Assembly (NCBI GenBank): GCA_947448865.1
Contig: CANFOW010000001.1
Location: forward strand, 4,845-68,844
DNA length: 64,000 bases
Origin: Actinomycetota bacterium
GTDB taxonomy: Bacteria > Actinomycetota > Actinomycetes > S36-B12 > UBA5976
Direction: 5' to 3'
Below the pieces are notes generated by a model that was not told the DNA's origin, did no database searches, and saw only the letters and a program-made list of their open reading frames with translations. Positions 2,546-54,450 of this stretch are shown here, piece after piece. The position numbers and the translations under genes are program-made. Positions within the stretch are counted from its first letter, which is position 1. Every line of letters begins with the position of its first letter.

Positions 2546-2586
2546 CGAATAGGGGTGTGAGGCAATATGTCTCACACCCCTATTCG
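2546..2586 (+). terminator. Perfect 16-bp stem / 9-nt loop hairpin after the permease gene
   Basis: CGAATAGGGGTGTGAG (2546-2561) pairs base for base with CTCACACCCCTATTCG (2571-2586). It starts 13 nt after the stop codon. No clear U-tract follows (ACTTTA), so its terminator strength is uncertain. Confidence 0.5.
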
Positions 2587-18486: not shown

Positions 18487-18526
18487 AAAAGTGGAGCCTC
18501 ACCTCAGGGTGGGGCTCCACTTTTTT
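18487..18526 (+). terminator. Rho-independent terminator
   Basis: AAAAGTGGAGCCTCACC-TCA-GGGTGGGGCTCCAC is a GC-rich stem with one mismatch, followed by TTTTTT. It starts 10 nt after the potD stop. Confidence 0.75.
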
Positions 18527-31250: not shown

Positions 31251-31323
31251 TGCCCACGAGAGGAATCGAACCTACGACCTTCTGCTCCGGAGGCAGACGC
31301 TCTATCCACTGAGCTACGTGGGC
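31251..31323 (-). tRNA. tRNA-Arg (anticodon CCG), CCA not encoded
   Basis: The reverse complement folds as a cloverleaf. Acceptor GCCCACG/CGTGGGC is perfect, D-arm is GCTC-AGTGGATA-GAGC, and anticodon arm is TCTGC-CTCCGGA-GCAGA. The T-arm GTAGG-TTCGATT-CCTCT has one G-U pair and one U-C mismatch. Confidence 0.85.
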
Positions 31324-33416: not shown

Positions 33417-36400
33417 GTGTCCGGTCCAAATCCGACCCAGTTTGGAGCCAATGATTGGCTCGTCGATGAGATGTACCAGCAGTACCTCGAAGACAAGGAA
33501 TCAGTAGACCCAGCGTGGTGGGAGTTCTTCGCGGACTACACACCGACTGACTATTCCGCAGCAAAAGCAGCTTCTGTTTCAGCAATCACAGCACCGGTTG
33601 CTGCTGCTCCTGTAGCACCGACCAGTGCGCCCGTTGCAACCAGCGTGCCAGTTGCAGCCACTTCGCCCGATGCAGAAAAACTCAAAGGTCCTGCGGCTCG
33701 AGTTGTTGTGAATATGGAAGCCAGCCTTGAAGTCCCCACCGCGACAAGTGTGCGGGCTGTCCCAGCAAAATTGATGGTCGACAACCGAATAGTCATAAAC
33801 AATCACCTTGCTCGCAACCGTGGTGGAAAAATAAGTTTCACTCATATCATTGGATACGCATTAGTGCGCGCTCTTAAAGATGTTCCTGATATGAACGTCG
33901 CGTATACGACTCTTGATGACAAACCAGCAATCATTCGGCATCCGCACGTCGGTCTCGGTCTAGCAATCGACTTGGCAAAAGAAGATGGAACACGTCAGTT
34001 ACTTGTTCCTTGCATTAAACAAGCAGACACTCTCGACTTTGCATCATTCTGGGCTAGTTATGAAGACGTTGTACGCAAAGCACGCCAAGGTAAACTAGCA
34101 GTTGAAGATTTCCAAGGCACCACAGTTAGCCTGACTAATCCTGGAACTATTGGCACGGTTCATTCAGTGCCGCGTCTCATGCAAGGTCAAGGTGTCATCA
34201 TTGGCGTTGGCGCGATGGAATACCCCGCAGAATGGCAAGGCGCTTCCGAAGTTATTTTGGCGCGCAATGGCATTAGCAAAATTATGACCTTAACAAGCAC
34301 CTACGATCATCGCGTCATTCAAGGCGCGCAGTCCGGTGAGTTCCTTCGTCGTATCCACCAACTGCTGCTTGGTGAATTTGGTTTCTACGATGACATTTTC
34401 AAGTCACTCGGAATCCCCTACGAACCAATCCGTTGGGCGCAAGACATTGCGACATCACATGACGATGAACTAGATAAGACAGCTCGGGTTCAGGAAATGA
34501 TCCACGCCTATCGTGTGCGTGGCCACCTCATGGCTGACATTGACCCACTTGAGTACCAGGTTCGTACACATCCTGATTTGGACATTGCAAATCATGGCTT
34601 GACTTTGTGGGACTTGGATCGCGAGTTTGCAACTGGCGGATTCGGCGGTAAGTCATTTGCAATGCTGCGCGATATTCTTGGTGTTCTTCGTGATGCCTAC
34701 TGTCGCACTATCGGTATTGAATACATGCACATTCAAGATCCAGAACAGCGCAAATGGATTCAAGACCGTGTCGAAGTGCGTCATGCGAAAACAGATCGCG
34801 TCGAACAACTTCGCATTCTGCACAAGTTGAATGAAGCCGAAGCGTTTGAAACGTTTTTACAAACAAAGTACGTAGGACAAAAACGATTCAGCCTCGAAGG
34901 TGGCGAAAGCGCAATTCCACTTCTCGAACACATCCTGTACTTGTCGTCACACGACGGACTTGATGAAGTATGCATTGGCATGCCACACCGTGGACGACTC
35001 AATGTGCTCGCAAATATTGCGGGCAAGAGTTACGAACGCATTTTCAATGAATTTGAAGGAAACTACGGCGAAGAATCTGTGCAAGGTTCCGGCGACGTGA
35101 AGTACCACCTCGGAACCGAAGGTCAATACACAAGTGTTGATGGCAAGTCGATAAATGTGTACCTCGCTGCAAATCCGTCACACCTTGAAGCCGTCAATCC
35201 TGTCCTTGAAGGCATTGTGCGGGCAAAGCAAGACCTCATTAATGAAAAAGAAAAGTACTCAGTATTGCCGCTGTTGATGCATGGCGATGCGGCCTTCGCT
35301 GGTCAAGGTGTTGTCGCAGAGACGCTTCAATTCAGCCAACTACAGGGTTACCGTGTTGGTGGCACTATTCACCTTGTTATTAACAACCAAGTCGGCTTTA
35401 CCACGTCTCCGCGGTATAGCCGTACCAGCGTGTATGCAACCGATGTCGCACGCATGATTCAAGCGCCAATTTTCCACGTCAATGGCGATGATCCTGAAGC
35501 AGTAGTTCGGGTTGCCAAAATGGCGTACGACTACCGTCAGGCATTCCATAAAGATGTTGTTATCGATATGGTGTGTTACCGCCGACGTGGTCATAACGAA
35601 GCCGATGATCCTTCACTCACCCAACCGTTAATGTACGAAGTTATCGACCAAAAGCGCTCAACGCGCAAGTTGTACACCGAAGCGCTTATTGGTCGCGGTG
35701 ACATTACTGTCGAAGAAGCGGAAGCAGCACTGAAGCACTACCAGGACGAGTTGGAAAAAGTTTTCCAAGCAACCAAGGCGTCATCCGGTGAGCACTTCAA
35801 TGCGGGTAGCAATGAAGTTGTTGCAACGGGTCAGCAGAGTTTGGAACCTCAAACTCCGTCAATTGATGTTCCGACCGGAATTTCACGTGAAGTAGTCGAC
35901 CGCGTTGTGGCATCGCAATTAAATATGCCCGAGGGCTTTACTGTTCATCCACGCCTGCTGCCGCAATTGCAGCGTCGTGCCGAAATGGTCGCAACTGATC
36001 AGATCGACTGGGGCATGGGAGAAGCACTCGCAATCGGGTCGCTACTCACCGAAGGCACAACTGTTCGCCTTTCAGGTCAAGATTCACGGCGCGGAACTTT
36101 TGGTCATCGTCATGCCGTCATCGTAGACAAGCAGACTGGTTGGCAATACAAGCCGCTCAAGCAGTGTTACGAAAATGGCGCACGACTGTACGTCTACGAC
36201 TCACTGCTGAGTGAATACGCTGCGATGGGTTTCGAGTACGGATATTCAGTGGTTCGCCCTAACGCACTGGTGTTGTGGGAAGCCCAATTCGGTGACTTTG
36301 TCAACGGAGCTCAAACCATCATTGACGAATTCATTTCCGCCGGTGAACAAAAGTGGGCGCAACGAAGCGATGTCACGTTGCTCTTGCCGCATGGTTTTGA

Positions 36401-37019
36401 AGGCCAAGGTCCTGATCACTCATCAGCACGTGTCGAGCGCTTCTTACAACTATGCGCTCAAGACAACATCACTGTCGCGATGCCATCTACTCCAGCGTCA
36501 TATTTCCACCTATTGCGCTGGCAGGTGCACTCACCTTTAGTGCGTCCACTTGTTGTATTCACACCGAAGTCATTACTGCGAGCAAAGTTTGCGACGTCCG
36601 CAGTCAGTGACTTCACAAGTGGAACGTTCACATCAATCATTCGAGACACGACTGTGAACTCGAATGACGTAACAACAGTTTTGTTGTGTTCGGGCAAGGT
36701 GTACTACGACCTGGTTGCCGAGCGAGAAAAGTCTGGCCGACGTGACGTCGCAATCATTAGAGTGGAGCGACTGTACCCACTTCCGTCGTTGCTTTTGCCA
36801 CAGGCTCTGGCTGAATATCCAGGACTTAAGAATGTGCGTTGGGTACAAGAAGAACCTCGTAACCAAGGTGCAGGTGGATTTATGTTGCTGAACTTGCCCG
36901 AAGTTATTAACCGCCCACTCACACTCGTGTCACGTCCAGCGTCTTCATCGCCAGCGGTTGGCTCGCACCACCGCCACGAAGTTGAACAAGCTGCGCTCGT
37001 CGCACAAGCATTCGAGTAA
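33417..37019 (+). CDS. kgd: Multifunctional 2-oxoglutarate decarboxylase/dehydrogenase E1 with N-terminal E2-type acyltransferase domain (actinobacterial Kgd/OdhA)
   Basis: 1200 aa. Ala/Pro linker, E2 catalytic [17 protein letters not shown], and E1 ThDP motifs ([25 protein letters not shown]). GTG start with GAAGGA SD. Confidence 0.95.
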
Positions 37020-37021
37020 AC

Positions 37022-37204
37022 ATGTACTTCACTGACCGTGGAATTGAAGAATTAGCTAAACGGCGTGGCGAAGAAGATGTCACACTTGAATGGCTTGCTG
37101 ATCAGTTGCGCATGTTTGTGGACATCAATCCCGACTTCGAGATTCCAATTGAACGCTTTGCTACCTGGCTTGCCCGACTTGATGATGATGTAGAGGAAGA
37201 CTAA
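37022..37204 (+). CDS. Small acidic conserved hypothetical protein (60 aa)
   Basis: Starts 2 nt after the kgd stop, and its own stop overlaps the next ATG (TAATG). Acidic C-terminus DDDVEED. No function is recognisable. Confidence 0.5.
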   Translation: MYFTDRGIEELAKRRGEEDVTLEWLADQLRMFVDINPDFEIPIERFATWLARLDDDVEED

Positions 37205-38166
37205 TGCGTGCTGCTATTGCAACAAGTTTTGATTCAGACAACCCAGTCGCTGGACTGACAATCGGTGAACATCCTGATCCTGAAATCAAGGACGGATGGA
37301 TTCGGGTGCACGTGAAAGCTGCCTCGTTAAATCATCACGATGTCTGGACTTTACGTGGAGTTGCTACAACAGCCGACCGCTTACCTATTGTCTTGGGCAC
37401 AGATGCCTCAGGTGTACTTGATGACGGAACCGAAGTCATTGTGCATGCTGTTATCGGCGATGCAAGTGATGGCGATGAAACACTTGATCCAAAGCGATCG
37501 CTCTTAAGTGAAATCTACGACGGTACCTTCGCTGAATTCGTCACTGTGCCAGCCCGTAACGTCATTGACAAGCCGGATTTCCTGACCTTTGAAGAAGCGT
37601 CGTGCCTACCGACTGCCTGGCTTACTGCCTATCGCATGCTTTTCACCAAGTCAGGACTTAAGCCCGGCGATACTGTGCTCATCCAAGGTGCTGGCGGCGG
37701 AGTTGCTACCGCTTTGATTCAACTTGCACACGCTGCCGGTTTTACGGTGTGGGTGACATCTCGTGATGCCGCCAAACGCGAATATGCACTCACCCTTGGC
37801 GCAGATGAAGCATTCGAAGTCGGCGCGAAGTTGCCAGGCAAAGTTGATGCGGTGATGGAAAGCGTCGGTGAGGCAACGTGGTCGCACTCTATGCGTTCAC
37901 TTCGTCCCGGTGGTCGTATTGTCATTTGCGGTGCCACATCCGGAGCTAACCCGCCAGCTGATCTCAATCGCTTGTTTTTCTTGCAACTCGAAGTAGTTGG
38001 TTCAACGATGGGAACTCGCGAAGAGTTTTCGCAGCTCGTGGCATTCTTGGGCAAAACGGGACTTCGTCCACAAATTCAACAAACCTTCGGTTTGTCCGAG
38101 ACGGATCAAGCGATTGCGCTCATGGCCAGCGGCGATGTTCGAGGAAAGCTCGTAATCGTTCCCTAG
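37204..38166 (+). CDS. Medium-chain (zinc-type) dehydrogenase/reductase, NADPH:quinone-oxidoreductase-like
   Basis: MDR architecture with GAGGGVATALIQLA Rossmann motif and N-terminal GroES-like domain. Confidence 0.8.
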   Translation: MRAAIATSFDSDNPVAGLTIGEHPDPEIKDGWIRVHVKAASLNHHDVWTLRGVATTADRLPIVLGTDASGVLDDGTEVIVHAVIGDASDGDETLDPKRSLLSEIYDGTFAEFVTVPARNVIDKPDFLTFEEASCLPTAWLTAYRMLFTKSGLKPGDTVLIQGAGGGVATALIQLAHAAGFTVWVTSRDAAKREYALTLGADEAFEVGAKLPGKVDAVMESVGEATWSHSMRSLRPGGRIVICGATSGANPPADLNRLFFLQLEVVGSTMGTREEFSQLVAFLGKTGLRPQIQQTFGLSETDQAIALMASGDVRGKLVIVP

Positions 38167-38174
38167 TGTGAACT

Positions 38175-38204
38175 TTGACCTGCACAATGGTGCGTTGCTA
38201 ATTA
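38175..38204 (+). promoter_or_regulatory. Possible sigma-70-type promoter for the heliorhodopsin gene
   Basis: TTGACC (38175-38180), an 18-nt spacer, then TAATTA (38199-38204). A GGAG SD lies 4 nt before the ATG at 38215. Read-through from the upstream gene is equally possible. Confidence 0.3.
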
Positions 38205-38214
38205 CAGTTGGAGC

Positions 38215-38973
38215 ATGAGTAACCCTACGCACGCAAAATTACGTCGTTTTAATCTGATTGCTGGAATCCTGCACTTGCTTCAACTCGCAGCAGTGTTGGC
38301 ATTGTCCACCGACTTCACACTTCCTGTTCGTGCTTCTTACATGGCCGGCCCGCCAGGAACTGACTTCACCGAACCCATTGTGTTGTTCCATTCGCCATTG
38401 GCACTTGGTGTTGCTTTGTTCCTTGCGCTGTCATCTGTGGCGCACTTCATTGTGGCTAGCCCTGCGTTCTTCGCACGTTACTCGCAGGGACTTACCCAGC
38501 ACCGCAACTATTTCCGTTGGGTTGAATACGGCATTAGCTCATCGGTCATGATTGTGCTCATCGCGCAAGTATGTGGAGTCACAGATATTGCTGCGCTCAT
38601 CGCAATCTTCGGCGTGAATGCGTCCATGATTCTGTTCGGATGGCTACAAGAAAAGTTTTGCGAACCAGGTAGCGGCGAATGGTTGCCGTTTATCTTTGGT
38701 TGTATCGCAGGAATTGTCCCGTGGCTTGCAATTGTCATTTATATCCTTAGCCCTAAGTCACCTGTGCAAGCTGATCCTCCGGGATTCGTTTACGGCATCG
38801 TTGTGTCGCTGTTCGTGATGTTTAATTCGTTTGCCTATGTGCAGTTCAAGCAATATCAAGCAAAGGGCAAATGGAGCGACTACCTTCGTGGCGAGCGCGC
38901 CTACATCGTCCTGAGTTTGGTCGCGAAGTCTCTGCTGGCTTGGCAAATCTTTGCCAACACGCTCATTCCTTAA
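38215..38973 (+). CDS. Heliorhodopsin (inverted-topology retinal-binding 7-TM protein)
   Basis: Collinear with heliorhodopsin 48C12 as I recall it: FNLIAGILHLLQ, FRWVEYGISSSVMIVLIAQ, FGVNASMILFGWLQEK, GCIAGIVPW, GFVYGI, KGKWSDYLRGERAYIVLSLVAKSLLAWQIF. The Schiff-base Lys is K238 (AAG at 38926-38928). Confidence 0.9.
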   Translation: MSNPTHAKLRRFNLIAGILHLLQLAAVLALSTDFTLPVRASYMAGPPGTDFTEPIVLFHSPLALGVALFLALSSVAHFIVASPAFFARYSQGLTQHRNYFRWVEYGISSSVMIVLIAQVCGVTDIAALIAIFGVNASMILFGWLQEKFCEPGSGEWLPFIFGCIAGIVPWLAIVIYILSPKSPVQADPPGFVYGIVVSLFVMFNSFAYVQFKQYQAKGKWSDYLRGERAYIVLSLVAKSLLAWQIFANTLIP

Positions 38974-39284
38974 TGAGAGCTGCCTAGATTCGCAAGGAAT
39001 CGCAAGGATTGAGGTAATCGCCACTTTACGGTGGCGATTACCTGGCTTGAAGTAAGAGCACCATACTGACGGGAATCGTGGCTCACTTCGGCGTTGTCAC
39101 CGTGGACAAAAACATGTGAGCCTTCAATACGTGTGACCCGCTTAATCTCAGTTCGCTCACCTTGATCAATAAGCACCACATCATTAACAGCGAACGAACT
39201 GCCGTAGCGCACTAAGACAACGTCGCCTGGCGCCAAATACGGAACCATAGACAGTCCCGTAACACGAGCTAACCCAAGAGCCAT
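38970..39284 (-). CDS. sodX: Ni-SOD maturation protease SodX (S26 signal-peptidase family)
   Basis: GLSMVPYL Ser-nucleophile motif and a KRV..I block. It is divergent from sodN, as in Streptomyces. Its stop shares a TTAA tetranucleotide with the heliorhodopsin stop. Confidence 0.8.
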   Translation of the reverse strand: MALGLARVTGLSMVPYLAPGDVVLVRYGSSFAVNDVVLIDQGERTEIKRVTRIEGSHVFVHGDNAEVSHDSRQYGALTSSQVIATVKWRLPQSLRFLANLGSSH

Positions 39285-39377
39285 AGCCCTATTGTTCCAG
39301 CCTTGGTGATGCCAACCGCACCTCTGTGTCGTAGCCTTGTCCTAGCGGTTAGCCGCAACCAATCTTCGGAGGACACT

Positions 39378-39773
39378 ATGAAGTTTTTTGCACCAACAAT
39401 CACAGTCAGCGCACACTGCGACTTGCCATGTGGCGTTTACGACCCAGCCCAGGCGCGTATCGAAGCATTGTCAGTTAAGGCATGCATGGAGAAGTACCAC
39501 GCATCCGACGACGCCAACTTCAAGGCTCGCGCCATTGCAATCAAAGAAGATCGCTCACACATGGTCAAGGATCACCTGTGGGTTCTGTGGACTGACTACT
39601 TCAAGGCACCACACTTTGAAAAGTACCCACAGTTGCACCAACTCTTCAACGAAGCCACAAAACTTGCTGGCGCAGCTGGCACCAAGGGCACCGTTGACGT
39701 AGCAGTTGCTGATCAGCTACTTGCAAAGATTGACGAAATCGCCGACATCTTCGCTGATTCCAAAAAGGCCTAA
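39378..39773 (+). CDS. sodN: Nickel superoxide dismutase precursor
   Basis: A 12-aa leader MKFFAPTITVSA is followed by the Ni-hook HCDLPCGVYDPA. GGAGGA SD. The track start at 39303 is an upstream extension. Confidence 0.95.
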   Translation: MKFFAPTITVSAHCDLPCGVYDPAQARIEALSVKACMEKYHASDDANFKARAIAIKEDRSHMVKDHLWVLWTDYFKAPHFEKYPQLHQLFNEATKLAGAAGTKGTVDVAVADQLLAKIDEIADIFADSKKA

Positions 39774-39782
39774 TCACTCAAC

Positions 39783-40265
39783 ATGTCCATCGTCGTTCGT
39801 CGCGCTACACCTGATGATGTAGCCCAGATGCACGAGATGATTCTCGAACTTGCAATTTTCGAGAATGAACCAGACGCTGTAACCGCCACCGCAGAGGACC
39901 TTCACCAGGCTCTCTTCGGTGGCGTTTCGCTTTCTGCACATGTTATTGACGCACCGGACGGACATGGCCTTGCTGCCATGGCGATCTGGTTCTTGAATTA
40001 CAGTACTTGGGACGGAAAGCACGGCGTATATCTTGAAGACCTTTATGTACGCGAACCTTTTCGTGGTCAAGGACTTGGTAAGGCGCTGATGCGCGAATTA
40101 GCAGCCATTTGTGTTGACAACGGATATTCAAGATTCCAATGGTGGGTACTCGACTGGAACCAGAAAGCCATTGATGTGTATCGCAGACTCGGTGCTGTGC
40201 CTATGGATGAGTGGACGGTCTATCGGCTCTCAGGCGAGCCATTGAACGAACTTGGTGGTTCGTAG
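39783..40265 (+). CDS. GNAT-family N-acetyltransferase
   Basis: Acetyl-CoA motif RGQGLGKALMREL. It starts 9 nt downstream of sodN. Confidence 0.8.
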   Translation: MSIVVRRATPDDVAQMHEMILELAIFENEPDAVTATAEDLHQALFGGVSLSAHVIDAPDGHGLAAMAIWFLNYSTWDGKHGVYLEDLYVREPFRGQGLGKALMRELAAICVDNGYSRFQWWVLDWNQKAIDVYRRLGAVPMDEWTVYRLSGEPLNELGGS

Positions 40266-40279
40266 GTTAGCGTTTTGTC

Positions 40280-40645
40280 GTGACCTCAATTCATCTCACT
40301 GTGCCAGCGCAAGCAACTTTTGTCGCGCTCGTGCGCACCAGTGCAGCGCATCTAGGCGCGCACATCAATCTCTCTGTTGATCAAATCGAAGACTTGCGAC
40401 TCGCTGTAGACGAAGCTTTTGCTGCAGTGTTATGCGAGTCCGACGAATCTGTCGACATCACCTTCGAATGCGACACTGATTCGATTACCGCAACTCTGAC
40501 CGGCCCTCGCGGCGCTAGCGAACCTGACAAAGCAGGCTTCGGATGGACAGTTATGGCTGCACTAGTCAACAACGTCAGTAGTTCAACTACTGAGGACGGC
40601 CGAGTCAGTATCTCGTTAACAACGAAGGTCACTGCGAGTGCATAA
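40280..40645 (+). CDS. Putative anti-sigma factor (short RsbW/UsfX-like protein) coupled to the SigF/B-type sigma gene
   Basis: 121 aa, GTG start, 8-nt overlap with the sigma gene. Position and size match the anti-sigma partners of SigF-type factors. Sequence similarity is judged only loosely. Confidence 0.55.
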   Translation: MTSIHLTVPAQATFVALVRTSAAHLGAHINLSVDQIEDLRLAVDEAFAAVLCESDESVDITFECDTDSITATLTGPRGASEPDKAGFGWTVMAALVNNVSSSTTEDGRVSISLTTKVTASA

Positions 40646-41396
40646 AGACAGTGACTTGCGATCTCACGATCGCGAGATGCTTGAGCAGTTAGGCGCTCTA
40701 GAAACTAACACTCCCGAACACGAGTCACTTCGCGCTGCCCTCATTGAGCGGCACCTGCCACTTGTGCACTTCCTTGCGCGCAAGTTCGCTGATCGTGGTG
40801 AACCGTTGGACGATTTGGTGCAAGTCGGCACTATCGGACTGATTAAGTCACTTGATCGATTTGATGCATCCTTAGGTTTTGAATTTTCCACATATGCAAC
40901 GCCTACAATCGTCGGTGAAATTAAGCGCTACTTTCGAGACAAGACCTGGGCTATCCGCATTCCCCGACGGTTACAAGAACTTGGTGCTCAAGTCAGCAAA
41001 GCTCGCGAGGAACTTACACATCAGTTGGATCGCTCACCAACACCGCAAGACATTGCCACACGTTTGTCGATTTCGGTAGACGATGTCATGGAAGCAATCG
41101 AAGCAAACTCTGCATACTCCACCGTAAGTCTTAGTGATAGTCACGATGATGAATCGCAATCATTGTCAGACAGATTGGGCTTTATCGATGAATCATTAGA
41201 AAATGTCGAGTACCGAGAATCACTTCGACCGCTTCTTGAAGCACTCGATGCACGGGAAAAGAAAATTTTAGTCATGCGATTTTTTGATAATAAGAGTCAA
41301 TCTGAAATCGCTTCGGAATTAGGAATTTCGCAAATGCATGTGTCGCGATTACTTGCTAAGACGCTCGCGCATTTGCGCACTGAACTACAAGGTTAG
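40638..41396 (+). CDS. Group-3 RNA polymerase sigma factor (SigB/SigF type)
   Basis: Region 2 DDLVQVGTIGLIKSLDRFD..FSTYATPTIVGEIKRYFRD, and region 4 SQSEIASELGISQMHVSRLL. Confidence 0.85.
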   Translation: MHKDSDLRSHDREMLEQLGALETNTPEHESLRAALIERHLPLVHFLARKFADRGEPLDDLVQVGTIGLIKSLDRFDASLGFEFSTYATPTIVGEIKRYFRDKTWAIRIPRRLQELGAQVSKAREELTHQLDRSPTPQDIATRLSISVDDVMEAIEANSAYSTVSLSDSHDDESQSLSDRLGFIDESLENVEYRESLRPLLEALDAREKKILVMRFFDNKSQSEIASELGISQMHVSRLLAKTLAHLRTELQG

Positions 41397-41737
41397 TTTG
41401 ACGACTTCACAGCGGCGACAAATGCTGTGATTCCAATGACACCAACGAGTGCGCCAACGAATTTTGCATTCCACCCAGTTCCGCTCAGCAACGTGTAGGC
41501 AATAATCCCAGCAAAAATTTGTAGCAACAAATATGGCGTTCGTGACCAGGTCTGTCCTTTGTGGTGCGCAAAAGACAGCGCTATAAGACCTAAGGCAAAC
41601 ACAGTAAAGATGATTGCCTGCACACTCGGTGAACCGACGGTGCTGTGATCACGGTGTGCGTTAATAACAATGGACACGGCAAACACAATTAACGATATTG
41701 CTTCAATGAAACCAAGGGCCACCGCAATTTTCCGCAT
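41393..41737 (-). CDS. Small integral membrane protein (4 predicted TM), function unknown
   Basis: Four hydrophobic stretches and clean start/stop. No recognisable motif. Confidence 0.5.
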   Translation of the reverse strand: MRKIAVALGFIEAISLIVFAVSIVINAHRDHSTVGSPSVQAIIFTVFALGLIALSFAHHKGQTWSRTPYLLLQIFAGIIAYTLLSGTGWNAKFVGALVGVIGITAFVAAVKSSN

Positions 41738-53807: not shown

Positions 53808-54450
53808 GGTCGAAAGGGATACCAGCGGATTGCACGTAAGCGCGCGCAGCTTTAGTTCGAGAATTAATGGATTGGTCGCTTTCAATACCTGCTGCCTCAA
53901 ACGTTCGACCGATTAAATGCTCAACTGCGCGAATAGATGTGCCACGACGTTGCGCAATTTCAGAATTGGAAAACCCAAGCGCAATCGCGCGTAGTACACC
54001 AATCTGGGAGCGGGATAAACCAGCAAGTGGGCGTTGCGGCTCGAGGTCATCTCGCGTGACTCGTTTCATTTGCTCAGTGAATGCAGTATCAACAACTTTC
54101 AGCAAGGCGCCACGTTGAGCAATCGTGTCTTTGCGGACATAACTCACACCCTTAGGGATCGAACGTGACTCTTGACCAATAAATCGTGGGTCCGGCAAAT
54201 GCGTTAATAACACAACAGCAACGTAGGGAAATTGACTTCGTAGATACTCTGCGAAGTCAATTCCAGTCGGCCCAGCACCAAGTTCGATGTCAACCAGGGC
54301 GACGTCTGGATCAAACTCAAGCGCCATGCGTTTGCCCTCTGCAGCAGTAGCGGCAACGGCTACTTCGTAGTTTTCGGAGGTCAACAAATCGGCAGTTAAG
54401 GACCGGAGTAATGCATCATCTTCCACAATGAGGACACGGCACGCTGTCAT
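53800..54450 (-). CDS. NarL/LuxR-family response regulator
   Basis: Receiver domain (VLIVEDD, DVALVDIEL) and C-terminal LuxR HTH LSRSQIGVLRAIALGFSNSEIAQRRGTSIRAVEHLI. Confidence 0.85.
   Translation of the reverse strand: MTACRVLIVEDDALLRSLTADLLTSENYEVAVAATAAEGKRMALEFDPDVALVDIELGAGPTGIDFAEYLRSQFPYVAVVLLTHLPDPRFIGQESRSIPKGVSYVRKDTIAQRGALLKVVDTAFTEQMKRVTRDDLEPQRPLAGLSRSQIGVLRAIALGFSNSEIAQRRGTSIRAVEHLIGRTFEAAGIESDQSINSRTKAARAYVQSAGIPFDHE

What the first reader, a model, noticed from the sequence alone, without database searches (positions are those of the whole stretch)
37204..40265. The heliorhodopsin is embedded in an oxidative-stress neighbourhood and shares its stop codon with sodX
The heliorhodopsin lies 48 nt downstream of, and co-oriented with, an NADPH:quinone-oxidoreductase-like MDR gene. 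Its TAA stop forms a palindromic TTAA (38970-38973) with the stop of convergent sodX. sodX is itself divergent from sodN (Ni-SOD), which is followed 9 nt later by a GNAT acetyltransferase. Transcription of the rhodopsin must therefore run into sodX antisense, because there is no room for a terminator. A light sensor placed next to superoxide and quinone detoxification genes suggests a link between light perception and photo-oxidative stress defence. One route could be protein-protein regulation, another antisense interference with sodX and hence Ni-SOD maturation. This is a hypothesis from gene order only.
Basis: inference. Interest (0 to 1): 0.6.

Follow-up and report, generated by a model that had tools for sequence, protein, structure and literature searches.

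The report
Heliorhodopsin gene beside nickel-SOD genes
An ordinary heliorhodopsin gene with its own promoter sits between two old, conserved gene blocks in one freshwater actinobacterial lineage; its end-to-end overlap with the Ni-SOD maturation protease gene is the normal tight packing of this small genome, not evidence that light sensing controls superoxide defence.

Summary
The description is accurate. MDR dehydrogenase, heliorhodopsin (HeR), convergent sodX, divergent sodN and a GNAT gene lie at the stated coordinates, and the HeR and sodX stops overlap in TTAA (38970-38973).

The interpretation mostly fails.
- Convergent 3' overlaps are the rule here: 8 of 13 convergent junctions in the window overlap or abut. 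Sigma/TM114, 2.4 kb downstream, has the same 4-nt geometry.
- In relatives with the same gene order, HeR-sodX spacing runs from -14 to +147 nt, and one has a whole extra gene between them.
- A terminator does fit. A perfect 13-14 bp hairpin (39012-39043, -24 kcal/mol) lies 39 nt past the HeR stop, inside sodX.
- HeR has its own leaderless-type -10 box (TACAGT, 6 nt before the ATG), conserved whatever the context.
- One relative has the same backbone (kgd-DUF6104-MDR/sodX-sodN-GNAT) without HeR.
- In the other ~57 Nanopelagicales species loci examined, HeR lies in at least 8 other contexts, none near the sod genes.
- The MDR reaches no quinone-reductase family threshold.

The adjacency is kept in about 22 species of one clade, but whole-region synteny explains that. 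A HeR link to photo-oxidative stress was already proposed from gene context in 2021. A functional link is not excluded, only unsupported.

The parts
33417..37019 (+). kgd/sucA-type 2-oxoglutarate dehydrogenase E1 (1200 aa); first gene of the old backbone block kgd-DUF6104-MDR
   Evidence: ORF. Orthologues in related loci carry 2-oxogl_dehyd_N, E1_dh and Transket_pyr domains. It is syntenic in all relatives.
37022..37204 (+). DUF6104 small protein (60 aa)
   Evidence: PF19599, E 4e-36. It lies next to kgd even in Nonomuraea.
37204..38166 (+). MDR-superfamily dehydrogenase of unknown substrate (labelled 'quinone-oxidoreductase-like')
   Evidence: ADH_N and ADH_zinc_N domains. No NCBIfam cutoff is reached. 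It is 67% identical to Nonomuraea orthologues. The best PDB match is 2eih, an alcohol dehydrogenase.
38203..38208 (+). Candidate -10 box TACAGT, 6 nt before the HeR ATG (leaderless-type promoter)
   Evidence: TANNNT sits at exactly this offset in 21 of 27 distinct syntenic HeR upstream regions and 21 of 24 non-syntenic ones. Its function is inferred from known actinobacterial leaderless promoters, not shown.
38215..38973 (+). Heliorhodopsin gene (252 aa), canonical
   Evidence: PF18761, E 7e-98. NF038020 333 bits against a cutoff of 100. E 3e-107 to the 48C12 heliorhodopsin structures 6su3/6su4, with the SLVAK Schiff-base lysine motif aligned.
38970..38973 (.). TTAA: the HeR and sodX stop codons overlap (4-nt ORF overlap)
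   Evidence: Sequence. Spacing at this junction in relatives runs from -14 to +147 nt.
39012..39043 (.). Perfect 13-bp inverted repeat (14-bp stem on the + strand RNA) inside the sodX 3' coding end; candidate terminator or 3'-end stabiliser for the HeR transcript
   Evidence: dG -24.2 kcal/mol, z -7.4. It is not repeated elsewhere in the window and is absent from relatives. The other comparably strong hairpins in the window lie in intergenic spacers, two of them directly after a stop codon.
38970..39284 (-). sodX-like S26-type peptidase (104 aa), putative Ni-SOD maturation protease
   Evidence: Peptidase_S24/S26. TIGR02754 scores 45.6 bits, below its 63.25 cutoff. The GLSM and IKRV motifs are conserved in the alignment. 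It is divergent from sodN.
39285..39377 (.). sodX/sodN divergent intergenic region (93 nt) with a GGAGG Shine-Dalgarno sequence before the sodN ATG
   Evidence: Sequence.
39378..39773 (+). sodN, Ni superoxide dismutase precursor (131 aa): 12-aa propeptide followed by the HCDLPCGVY Ni-hook
   Evidence: PF09055. TIGR02753 142.8 bits against a cutoff of 90. Residue 13 aligns with residue 1 of mature Streptomyces NiSOD.
39783..40265 (+). GNAT acetyltransferase, 9 nt after sodN; conserved partner of sodN in relatives
   Evidence: PF00583. It is kept after sodN in L086 and L087, and nearby in L081.
40280..41396 (+). RsbW-like anti-sigma factor (40280-40645) and SigB/F/G-family sigma factor (40638-41396), packed against sodN-GNAT; a second lineage-specific insertion
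   Evidence: TIGR02980 294 bits against a cutoff of 234. The pair is absent from L086 and L087.
41393..41737 (-). 114-aa membrane-like ORF convergent with the sigma gene; same 4-nt stop overlap (TTAG)

Best explanation
The heliorhodopsin gene is a self-contained, probably monocistronic unit. It sits at the convergent junction between two older actinobacterial gene blocks. One block is kgd-DUF6104-MDR, read rightwards. The other is sodX / sodN-GNAT, where sodX and sodN form the classic divergent Ni-SOD maturation pair.

HeR carries its own leaderless-type promoter, a TANNNT box 6 nt before the ATG. In this genome it is followed by a strong hairpin embedded in the 3' end of sodX. That hairpin probably ends or stabilises its transcript.

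The TTAA stop overlap with sodX is a by-product of genome compaction. The HeR and sodX mRNAs probably overlap by a few tens of nucleotides, as at most convergent junctions in this genome. Nothing indicates that this overlap is selected or regulatory.

Shown: the gene identities, the geometry, how common such overlaps are, how variable the junction is in relatives, and the existence of the backbone without HeR.

Inferred: promoter and terminator function, and the absence of a functional coupling.
For: 1. Backbone without HeR. In L087, kgd-DUF6104-MDR(+) overlaps sodX(-) by 12 nt, followed by sodN-GNAT-TM-DAGK-WhiB. In Nonomuraea, kgd, DUF6104 and the MDR orthologue (67% identity) lie within 5 kb. 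L081 has sodX/sodN, a GNAT and the MDR nearby without HeR.

2. The junction tolerates insertions. There is an HNH/DUF222 gene between MDR and HeR in L086, a 518-aa ORF between HeR and sodX in L092, and 135-147-nt spacers in L089 and L003.

3. HeR-sodX spacing takes the values -14, -11, -4, +1, +7, +12/13, +135 and +147 nt.

4. 8 of 13 convergent junctions in the window overlap or abut. For five of these pairs, 9 of the 10 genes have Pfam domains. Sigma/TM114 shares a TTAG overlap.

5. TANNNT lies exactly 6 nt before the HeR ATG in 21 of 27 syntenic and 21 of 24 non-syntenic distinct upstream regions.

6. The hairpin at 39012-39043 has dG -24 kcal/mol and z -7.4. The window's other comparably strong hairpins lie in intergenic spacers, two of them directly after a stop codon.

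7. In 57 other Nanopelagicales species loci, HeR lies in at least 8 different contexts, and none of the window's neighbours, sodN and sodX included, is within 6 kb. The neighbours there include glutamine synthetase/NadE, a photolyase-related protein, glutaredoxin, an ANTAR regulator, SOUL, an S51 peptidase and UbiA.

8. HeR shows no compositional anomaly.
Against: - The MDR-HeR-sodX order has been kept while HeR diverged to 72% and SodX to about 41% identity, so selection for the position cannot be excluded.
- Published cases show that HeRs can bind and regulate the product of an adjacent gene: glutamine synthetase (PMC9529153), photolyase (PMC9769723) and an ABC transporter (PMC11109279).
- Redox genes (glutaredoxin, photolyase-related) recur near HeR in sister lineages, in line with PMC8612252.
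- The hairpin has no U-tract and is absent from relatives. It also lies upstream of the sodX stop on the other strand, so its role as a terminator is uncertain.
- No expression data were available.
Confidence: 0.7

Rival explanations
1. HeR acts as a light-dependent regulatory partner of a neighbouring gene product, as shown for HeR with glutamine synthetase, photolyase and an ABC transporter. The partner would be the co-oriented MDR dehydrogenase, or SodX/SodN. Light would then tune redox or superoxide defence.
For: - Precedents for HeR regulating an adjacent gene product exist (PMC9529153, PMC9769723, PMC11109279).
- The adjacency is kept in about 22 species.
- A published proposal links HeR to photo-oxidative stress (PMC8612252).
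- MDR and HeR are co-oriented, 19-72 nt apart, in most relatives.
Against: - HeR has its own promoter signal.
- The MDR-HeR adjacency is interrupted by an HNH gene in L086, and HeR-sodX by another gene in L092.
- The backbone persists without HeR in L087.
- Neither an MDR nor SOD is among the ten frequent HeR neighbour groups of PMC11109279. Superoxide is not mentioned in PMC8612252.
- No independent recurrence was seen in 132 non-syntenic HeR loci.
Confidence: 0.1
2. Convergent transcription of HeR into sodX gives antisense or transcriptional interference (excludon-like). High HeR expression would then lower SodX and so Ni-SOD maturation.
For: The ORFs overlap by 4 nt, so the mRNA 3' ends must overlap. 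Overlaps of 11-14 nt are common at this junction in relatives.
Against: - The overlap is not conserved: spacing ranges from -14 to +147 nt, and one relative has an interposed gene.
- The same geometry occurs at most convergent junctions in the window.
- The strong hairpin 39-71 nt downstream would limit the overlap to roughly the last 25 codons of sodX.
- Lowering SOD maturation when the light sensor is expressed has no obvious benefit (inference).
Confidence: 0.07
3. The 39012-39043 palindrome is not an RNA element. It would be either a DNA operator for a dimeric regulator or a neutral product of a template-switch (quasi-palindrome) mutation.
For: It is perfectly symmetric (13 bp, 6-bp spacer), specific to this lineage and absent from L001, which is 92% identical in HeR. 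It has no U-tract.
Against: It lies at the 3' ends of two genes, far from any promoter. The comparable hairpins in the window lie in intergenic spacers, two of them directly after a stop codon. The motif occurs nowhere else in the window.
Confidence: 0.15

Closest known systems
Heliorhodopsin 48C12 (PDB 6su3/6su4) and freshwater actinobacterial heliorhodopsins
   Same: The full length aligns (residues 8-252) at E 3e-107, roughly 70% identical by my count of the printed alignment. The TM7 SxxxK motif (SLVAK) is kept, and both the Pfam and NCBIfam HeR models are passed.
   Different: Nothing notable in the protein itself. Only the genomic context differs.
Published HeR gene-context classes (Bulzu et al. 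2021, PMC8612252; Cho et al. 2024, PMC11109279)
   Same: The reasoning is the same, from HeR neighbours to function. The proposed theme, photo-oxidative stress, is also the same. The glutamine synthetase/NAD synthetase, photolyase, SDR and hydrolase contexts were recovered here in the sister Nanopelagicaceae.
   Different: The MDR-HeR-sodX-sodN context is not among the ten listed groups. Superoxide dismutase is not mentioned in either paper. Here HeR seems to be an independent transcription unit, not part of an operon.
Streptomyces sodX-sodN Ni-SOD maturation pair
   Same: sodX (an S26-type peptidase) is divergent from sodN. SodN has an N-terminal propeptide before the HCDLPCGVY Ni-hook. That the Streptomyces pair is arranged divergently is from my own knowledge of S. 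coelicolor and was not tested here.
   Different: SodX here is short (104 aa) and scores below the TIGR02754 cutoff. In this clade sodN is followed by a GNAT gene and, in most members, by an rsbW-like/sigF-like pair.
Overlapping convergent 3' ends / excludon-type antisense arrangements
   Same: These are convergent genes whose transcripts must overlap at their 3' ends.
   Different: The overlap is tiny, varies among relatives and is typical of this compact genome. No long antisense transcript is implied or shown.

Membership tests
Heliorhodopsin (PF18761 / NF038020) | Full-length match to the family model above the curated cutoff | tested here: met
   PF18761 327 bits against a cutoff of 26.7. 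NF038020 333 bits against a cutoff of 100.
Heliorhodopsin (PF18761 / NF038020) | TM7 SxxxK retinal Schiff-base lysine motif | tested here: met
   SLVAK aligns with the same motif of the 48C12-type structure. The motif definition is taken from PMC12817590.
Heliorhodopsin (PF18761 / NF038020) | Retinal binding, long photocycle, inverted membrane topology | not testable with these tools
   Needs expression and spectroscopy.
Ni superoxide dismutase SodN (TIGR02753) | Model match above the cutoff, and an N-terminal Ni-hook HCxxPCGxY after a cleavable propeptide | tested here: met
   142.8 bits against a cutoff of 90. HCDLPCGVY starts at residue 13 and aligns with residue 1 of mature Streptomyces NiSOD.
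Ni-SOD maturation protease SodX (TIGR02754) | Model match above the curated cutoff | tested here: not met
   45.6 bits against a cutoff of 63.25. It just passes the generic signal peptidase I model (47.9 against 47).
Ni-SOD maturation protease SodX (TIGR02754) | S26 Ser/Lys catalytic motifs, and a position next to and divergent from sodN | tested here: met
   The GLSM and IKRV/GDN...DSR motifs are conserved in 22 orthologues. The gene is divergent from sodN with a 93-nt spacer. The arrangement is kept in all relatives.
NAD(P)H:quinone oxidoreductase (PIG3 TIGR02824 / Qor PRK10754) | Model match above the curated cutoff | tested here: not met
   141 bits against 297 for PIG3, and 61 against 348 for Qor. 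Crotonyl-CoA and acryloyl-CoA reductase models score similarly. The best PDB relative is an alcohol dehydrogenase.
HeR-partner operon (GS / photolyase / ABC-transporter type) | The partner gene is co-transcribed with HeR, and the adjacency recurs across lineages | tested here: inconclusive
   The MDR is co-oriented 48 nt upstream. But HeR has its own -10 signal, the adjacency is broken in L086, and it is confined to one clade. Transcripts were not available.
Regulatory antisense overlap (excludon-like) | The overlap of the convergent transcripts is conserved and extensive | tested here: not met
   Spacing runs from -14 to +147 nt, with an interposed gene in one relative. Transcript extent itself could not be tested.

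The most novel reading that the evidence does not exclude
In this Nanopelagicales clade the heliorhodopsin has been recruited as a light-dependent regulator of superoxide defence. It would bind the neighbouring MDR oxidoreductase, or SodX/SodN, in the way other heliorhodopsins bind glutamine synthetase or photolyase. Ni-SOD maturation or NADPH-dependent redox chemistry would then be tuned by light. The sodN-GNAT-rsbW-sigF operon next door would form part of the same light/oxidative-stress module.
Probability: 0.08. Interest if true: 0.6.

Novelty: new member of a known kind. Interest (0 to 1): 0.2.

Why it matters
If a functional link were real, it would give heliorhodopsin, whose physiological role is still debated, a concrete output in superoxide defence in abundant freshwater bacteria. 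On present evidence the locus mainly serves as a caution. HeR is positionally mobile in Nanopelagicales and carries its own promoter. So a single conserved neighbourhood within one clade, or a shared stop codon in a compact genome, should not be read as regulation. The clade-specific MDR-HeR-sodX context could be added to the catalogue of HeR contexts and tested cheaply alongside the published partners.

Tried and rejected
1. Sigma-70 consensus scan of 36800-40800. It found no promoter, and the terminator-like hits were only weak ones inside genes. The consensus does not suit actinobacterial promoters, so I used an alignment of upstream regions instead.

2. The hairpin as a repeated element (REP/MITE). 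Its arm sequence occurs only at 39013-39042 in the window.

3. Known RNA families or tRNA/att remnants at the junction. Rfam at gathering thresholds found only a tRNA at 31251-31323 in the window and nothing in the HeR-sodX region of the window, L003, L089 or L092. ARAGORN found no tRNA in L001, L003, L089 or L092, despite a T-arm-like GGGTTCGAATCC motif in the L003/L089 spacer.

4. Recent horizontal insertion of HeR. There is no GC or skew anomaly across 38200-39000.

5. Closer relatives, to test conservation of the hairpin. The metagenome scan returned nothing closer than 74% HeR identity. The closest genomes (84-92%) lack the hairpin.

6. Polarity of HeR gain versus loss. A single-gene NJ tree on the Kgd C-terminus places the HeR-less L087 inside the clade, which would imply loss. 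But L086 and L087 both lack the sigma pair, which instead suggests they branch early. This is left unresolved.

7. An N-run after HeR in L090. I considered deliberate masking. Because the record is a scaffold, an assembly gap is the simpler reading.


Full report
**1. Observation**

The ORF list and sequence show the following genes.

| Gene | Coordinates | Strand |
|---|---|---|
| MDR | 37204-38166 | + |
| HeR | 38215-38973 | + |
| sodX-like | 38970-39284 | - |
| sodN | 39378-39773 | + |
| GNAT | 39783-40265 | + |

For sodN I take the ATG at 39378, which follows a GGAGG; the longest ORF starts at 39303. Pfam and NCBIfam confirm the identities:
- HeR passes PF18761 (E 7e-98) and the NF038020 equivalog (333 bits against 100).
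- SodN passes TIGR02753 (143 against 90).
- The sodX product is an S24/S26 peptidase. It scores 45.6 bits against TIGR02754 (cutoff 63.25), so the model alone does not confirm it. It keeps the Ser and Lys motifs and is divergent from sodN.

SodN has a 12-residue propeptide followed by HCDLPCGVY, and this aligns with residue 1 of mature Streptomyces NiSOD. HeR aligns over its full length with the 48C12 heliorhodopsin structures, including the SLVAK lysine motif.

The gaps are as stated: 48 nt from MDR to HeR and 9 nt from sodN to GNAT. The two stop codons overlap within TTAA 38970-38973. The description is therefore correct.

The one weak label is 'quinone oxidoreductase'. The MDR reaches no NCBIfam cutoff (PIG3 141 against 297). 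Crotonyl-CoA and acryloyl-CoA reductase models score about the same. Its closest solved relative is an alcohol dehydrogenase.

**2. Is the TTAA overlap special?**

No. A window-wide ORF map gives 13 convergent junctions, and 8 of them overlap or abut (-50, -26, -24, -14, -12, -4, -4, 0). For five of these pairs I checked the genes, and 9 of 10 have clear Pfam domains. The sigma-factor gene and the 114-aa ORF 2.4 kb downstream share a TTAG with exactly the same two-base stop overlap. The window is about 51% GC and very tightly packed, and this geometry is its default.

**3. Is there room for a terminator?**

Yes. A perfect 13-bp inverted repeat lies at 39012-39043, which gives a 14-bp stem in the + strand RNA. 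It starts 39 nt after the HeR stop, inside the last 25 codons of sodX.
- It folds at -24.2 kcal/mol (z = -7.4). No shuffle out of 200 folded as well.
- It is not a repeated element.
- The few other hairpins of similar strength in the window (2546-2586, 18487-18524, 54230-54262) lie in intergenic spacers, two of them directly after a stop codon, like terminators.

Three caveats apply. It has no U-tract. On the sodX strand it lies before the sodX stop. And it is specific to this lineage: relatives at 78-92% HeR identity encode the same VIA.V/WRLP residues with other codons and have no hairpin there. More distant relatives have a weaker hairpin (CCTGGCTTAGGCCAG plus an outer TCGAC/GTCGA) directly after the HeR stop, but it coincides with the SodX WPKPG codons. 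I rate a terminator or 3'-stabiliser role at about 50%.

**4. HeR has its own promoter signal**

Alignment of HeR upstream regions shows TANNNT exactly 6 nt before the ATG in 21 of 27 distinct syntenic sequences. The variants include TACAGT, TATAGT, TACACT, TAGAGT, TAAACT and TACGCT, and the rest of the spacer is unalignable. The same signal occurs in 21 of 24 HeR loci from quite different genomic contexts.

This is the arrangement known for leaderless actinobacterial mRNAs (established knowledge; function is inferred here). Three relatives (L002, L089, L092) have an AGGGAG/AGGAG Shine-Dalgarno sequence instead. So HeR looks like a portable promoter-plus-gene unit, and being 48 nt downstream of the MDR is not evidence for an operon.

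**5. Comparative genomics**

A scan of one genome per species returned 80 HeR loci, all Nanopelagicales. The full order kgd-DUF6104-MDR-HeR-sodX-sodN-GNAT-antisigma-sigma-TM-DAGK is kept in L001-L022 and L026, apart from some short contigs (HeR at least 72% identical, SodX down to about 41%). None of these neighbours lies within 6 kb of HeR in the other 57 loci.

In those other loci HeR occupies at least 8 different contexts. The neighbours include glutamine synthetase with NAD synthetase, a photolyase-related protein, glutaredoxin, an ANTAR response regulator, a SOUL protein, an S51 peptidase and a UbiA-family protein. This matches the published context classes (PMC8612252; PMC11109279). With metagenome and other fetched loci added, 38 HeR loci are syntenic and 132 are not.

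Contexts of MDR orthologues are decisive:

| Locus | Arrangement |
|---|---|
| L087 | kgd-DUF6104-MDR(+) overlapping sodX(-) by 12 nt, then sodN-GNAT-TM-DAGK-WhiB; no HeR, no sigma pair |
| L086 | DUF222/HNH endonuclease gene between MDR and HeR; no sigma pair |
| L092 | 518-aa secreted-looking ORF between HeR and sodX |
| L089, L003 | 135-147-nt structured spacer between HeR and sodX |
| L081 | sodX/sodN, a GNAT and the MDR near each other; no HeR |
| L083 (Nonomuraea) | kgd, DUF6104 and the MDR orthologue (67% identity) within 5 kb |

So two old blocks, kgd-DUF6104-MDR and sodX/sodN-GNAT, meet at a convergent junction. HeR is an insertion at that junction, and the rsbW/sigF-like pair is a separate insertion further along the same backbone, between GNAT and the TM114 gene. 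Across relatives, HeR-sodX spacing takes the values -14, -11, -4, +1, +7, +12/13, +135 and +147 nt.

HeR shows no compositional anomaly, so the insertion is old. A single-gene NJ tree does not settle whether L087 lost HeR or never had it.

**6. Interpretation**

Conservation of the adjacency within one clade is what vertical inheritance of a fully syntenic 12-kb region predicts. It is not independent evidence of function. The junction tolerates insertions on both sides of HeR, the overlap is variable, and the backbone works without HeR.

As a rough estimate of my own, not a computed result, assume about nine independent HeR contexts in the order and some tens of redox-related genes per roughly 1.5-Mb genome. 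One landing next to such a gene by chance is then not surprising.

The best-supported account is therefore a neutral or weakly selected placement of an autonomous HeR unit at a permissive convergent junction (confidence 0.7). A protein-level coupling cannot be excluded, because HeRs have been shown to regulate products of adjacent genes (PMC9529153, PMC9769723, PMC11109279). I give it about 0.1. I give regulatory antisense about 0.07.

**7. Novelty and score**

The protein is a canonical HeR. The sodX/sodN pair is the classic Ni-SOD arrangement. The idea that HeR is tied to photo-oxidative stress through gene context is published (PMC8612252). The specific MDR-HeR-sodX-sodN context does not appear in the two context surveys I read. 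No paper among the eight that mention both heliorhodopsin and superoxide dismutase has either term in its title or abstract. So this is at most a further, clade-restricted member of the known set of HeR contexts. Interest 0.2.

Noticed in passing
window 39378-41396: sodN, GNAT, an RsbW-like anti-sigma factor and a SigB/F/G-family sigma factor are packed with gaps of 9, 14 and -8 nt, so they are probably one operon. A stress sigma factor would then be co-transcribed with Ni-SOD. The anti-sigma/sigma pair is missing from relatives L086 and L087, so it is a lineage-specific insertion. No anti-anti-sigma (STAS) gene is adjacent.
   Followed up: partly
window 41393-41396: The sigma-factor stop (TAG 41394-41396) and the stop of the convergent 114-aa ORF (TAA on the minus strand, 41393-41395) overlap in TTAG. 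This is the same geometry as the HeR/sodX TTAA.
   Followed up: yes
L003 628-774 and L089 5778-5912: A 135-147-nt HeR-sodX spacer is conserved between these two relatives (82% identity). It is predicted to fold strongly and contains a tRNA T-arm-like GGGTTCGA(A/T)TCC motif. ARAGORN finds no tRNA and Rfam has no hit. It could be an unannotated small RNA, a terminator cluster or an integration scar.
   Followed up: partly
L092 5843-7399: A 518-aa Ser/Thr-rich ORF with an N-terminal hydrophobic segment and no Pfam domain is inserted between HeR and sodX, in a relative with 88% HeR identity.
   Followed up: no
L086 3290-4720: A DUF222/HNH endonuclease gene (a mobile-element-like family in Actinobacteria) lies between the MDR and HeR. 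This points to mobile-element activity at this junction.
   Followed up: no
window 38203-38208 and HeR upstream regions of L001-L176: TANNNT exactly 6 nt before the HeR start codon is conserved across Nanopelagicales, whatever the genomic context. This suggests leaderless HeR mRNAs. One subclade (L002, L089, L092) has switched to a Shine-Dalgarno leader.
   Followed up: yes
window 38970-39040 (SodX C-terminus): SodX of the window's subclade has RLPQ/RLPR in place of the R(L/I)WPKPG C-terminal motif kept in the other relatives. Its tail is variable in length and sequence.
   Followed up: partly
window 33417-38166; L083: The kgd-DUF6104-MDR linkage seems ancient. In Nonomuraea the MDR orthologue (67% identical) lies within 5 kb of DUF6104 and kgd. 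This hints that the MDR and DUF6104 have a role connected with 2-oxoglutarate dehydrogenase, not with quinone detoxification.
   Followed up: partly
window 38990-39010: A short direct repeat, TCGCAAGGA x2 (gattCGCAAGGAaTCGCAAGGAtt), lies between the HeR stop and the hairpin, inside the sodX tail.
   Followed up: no
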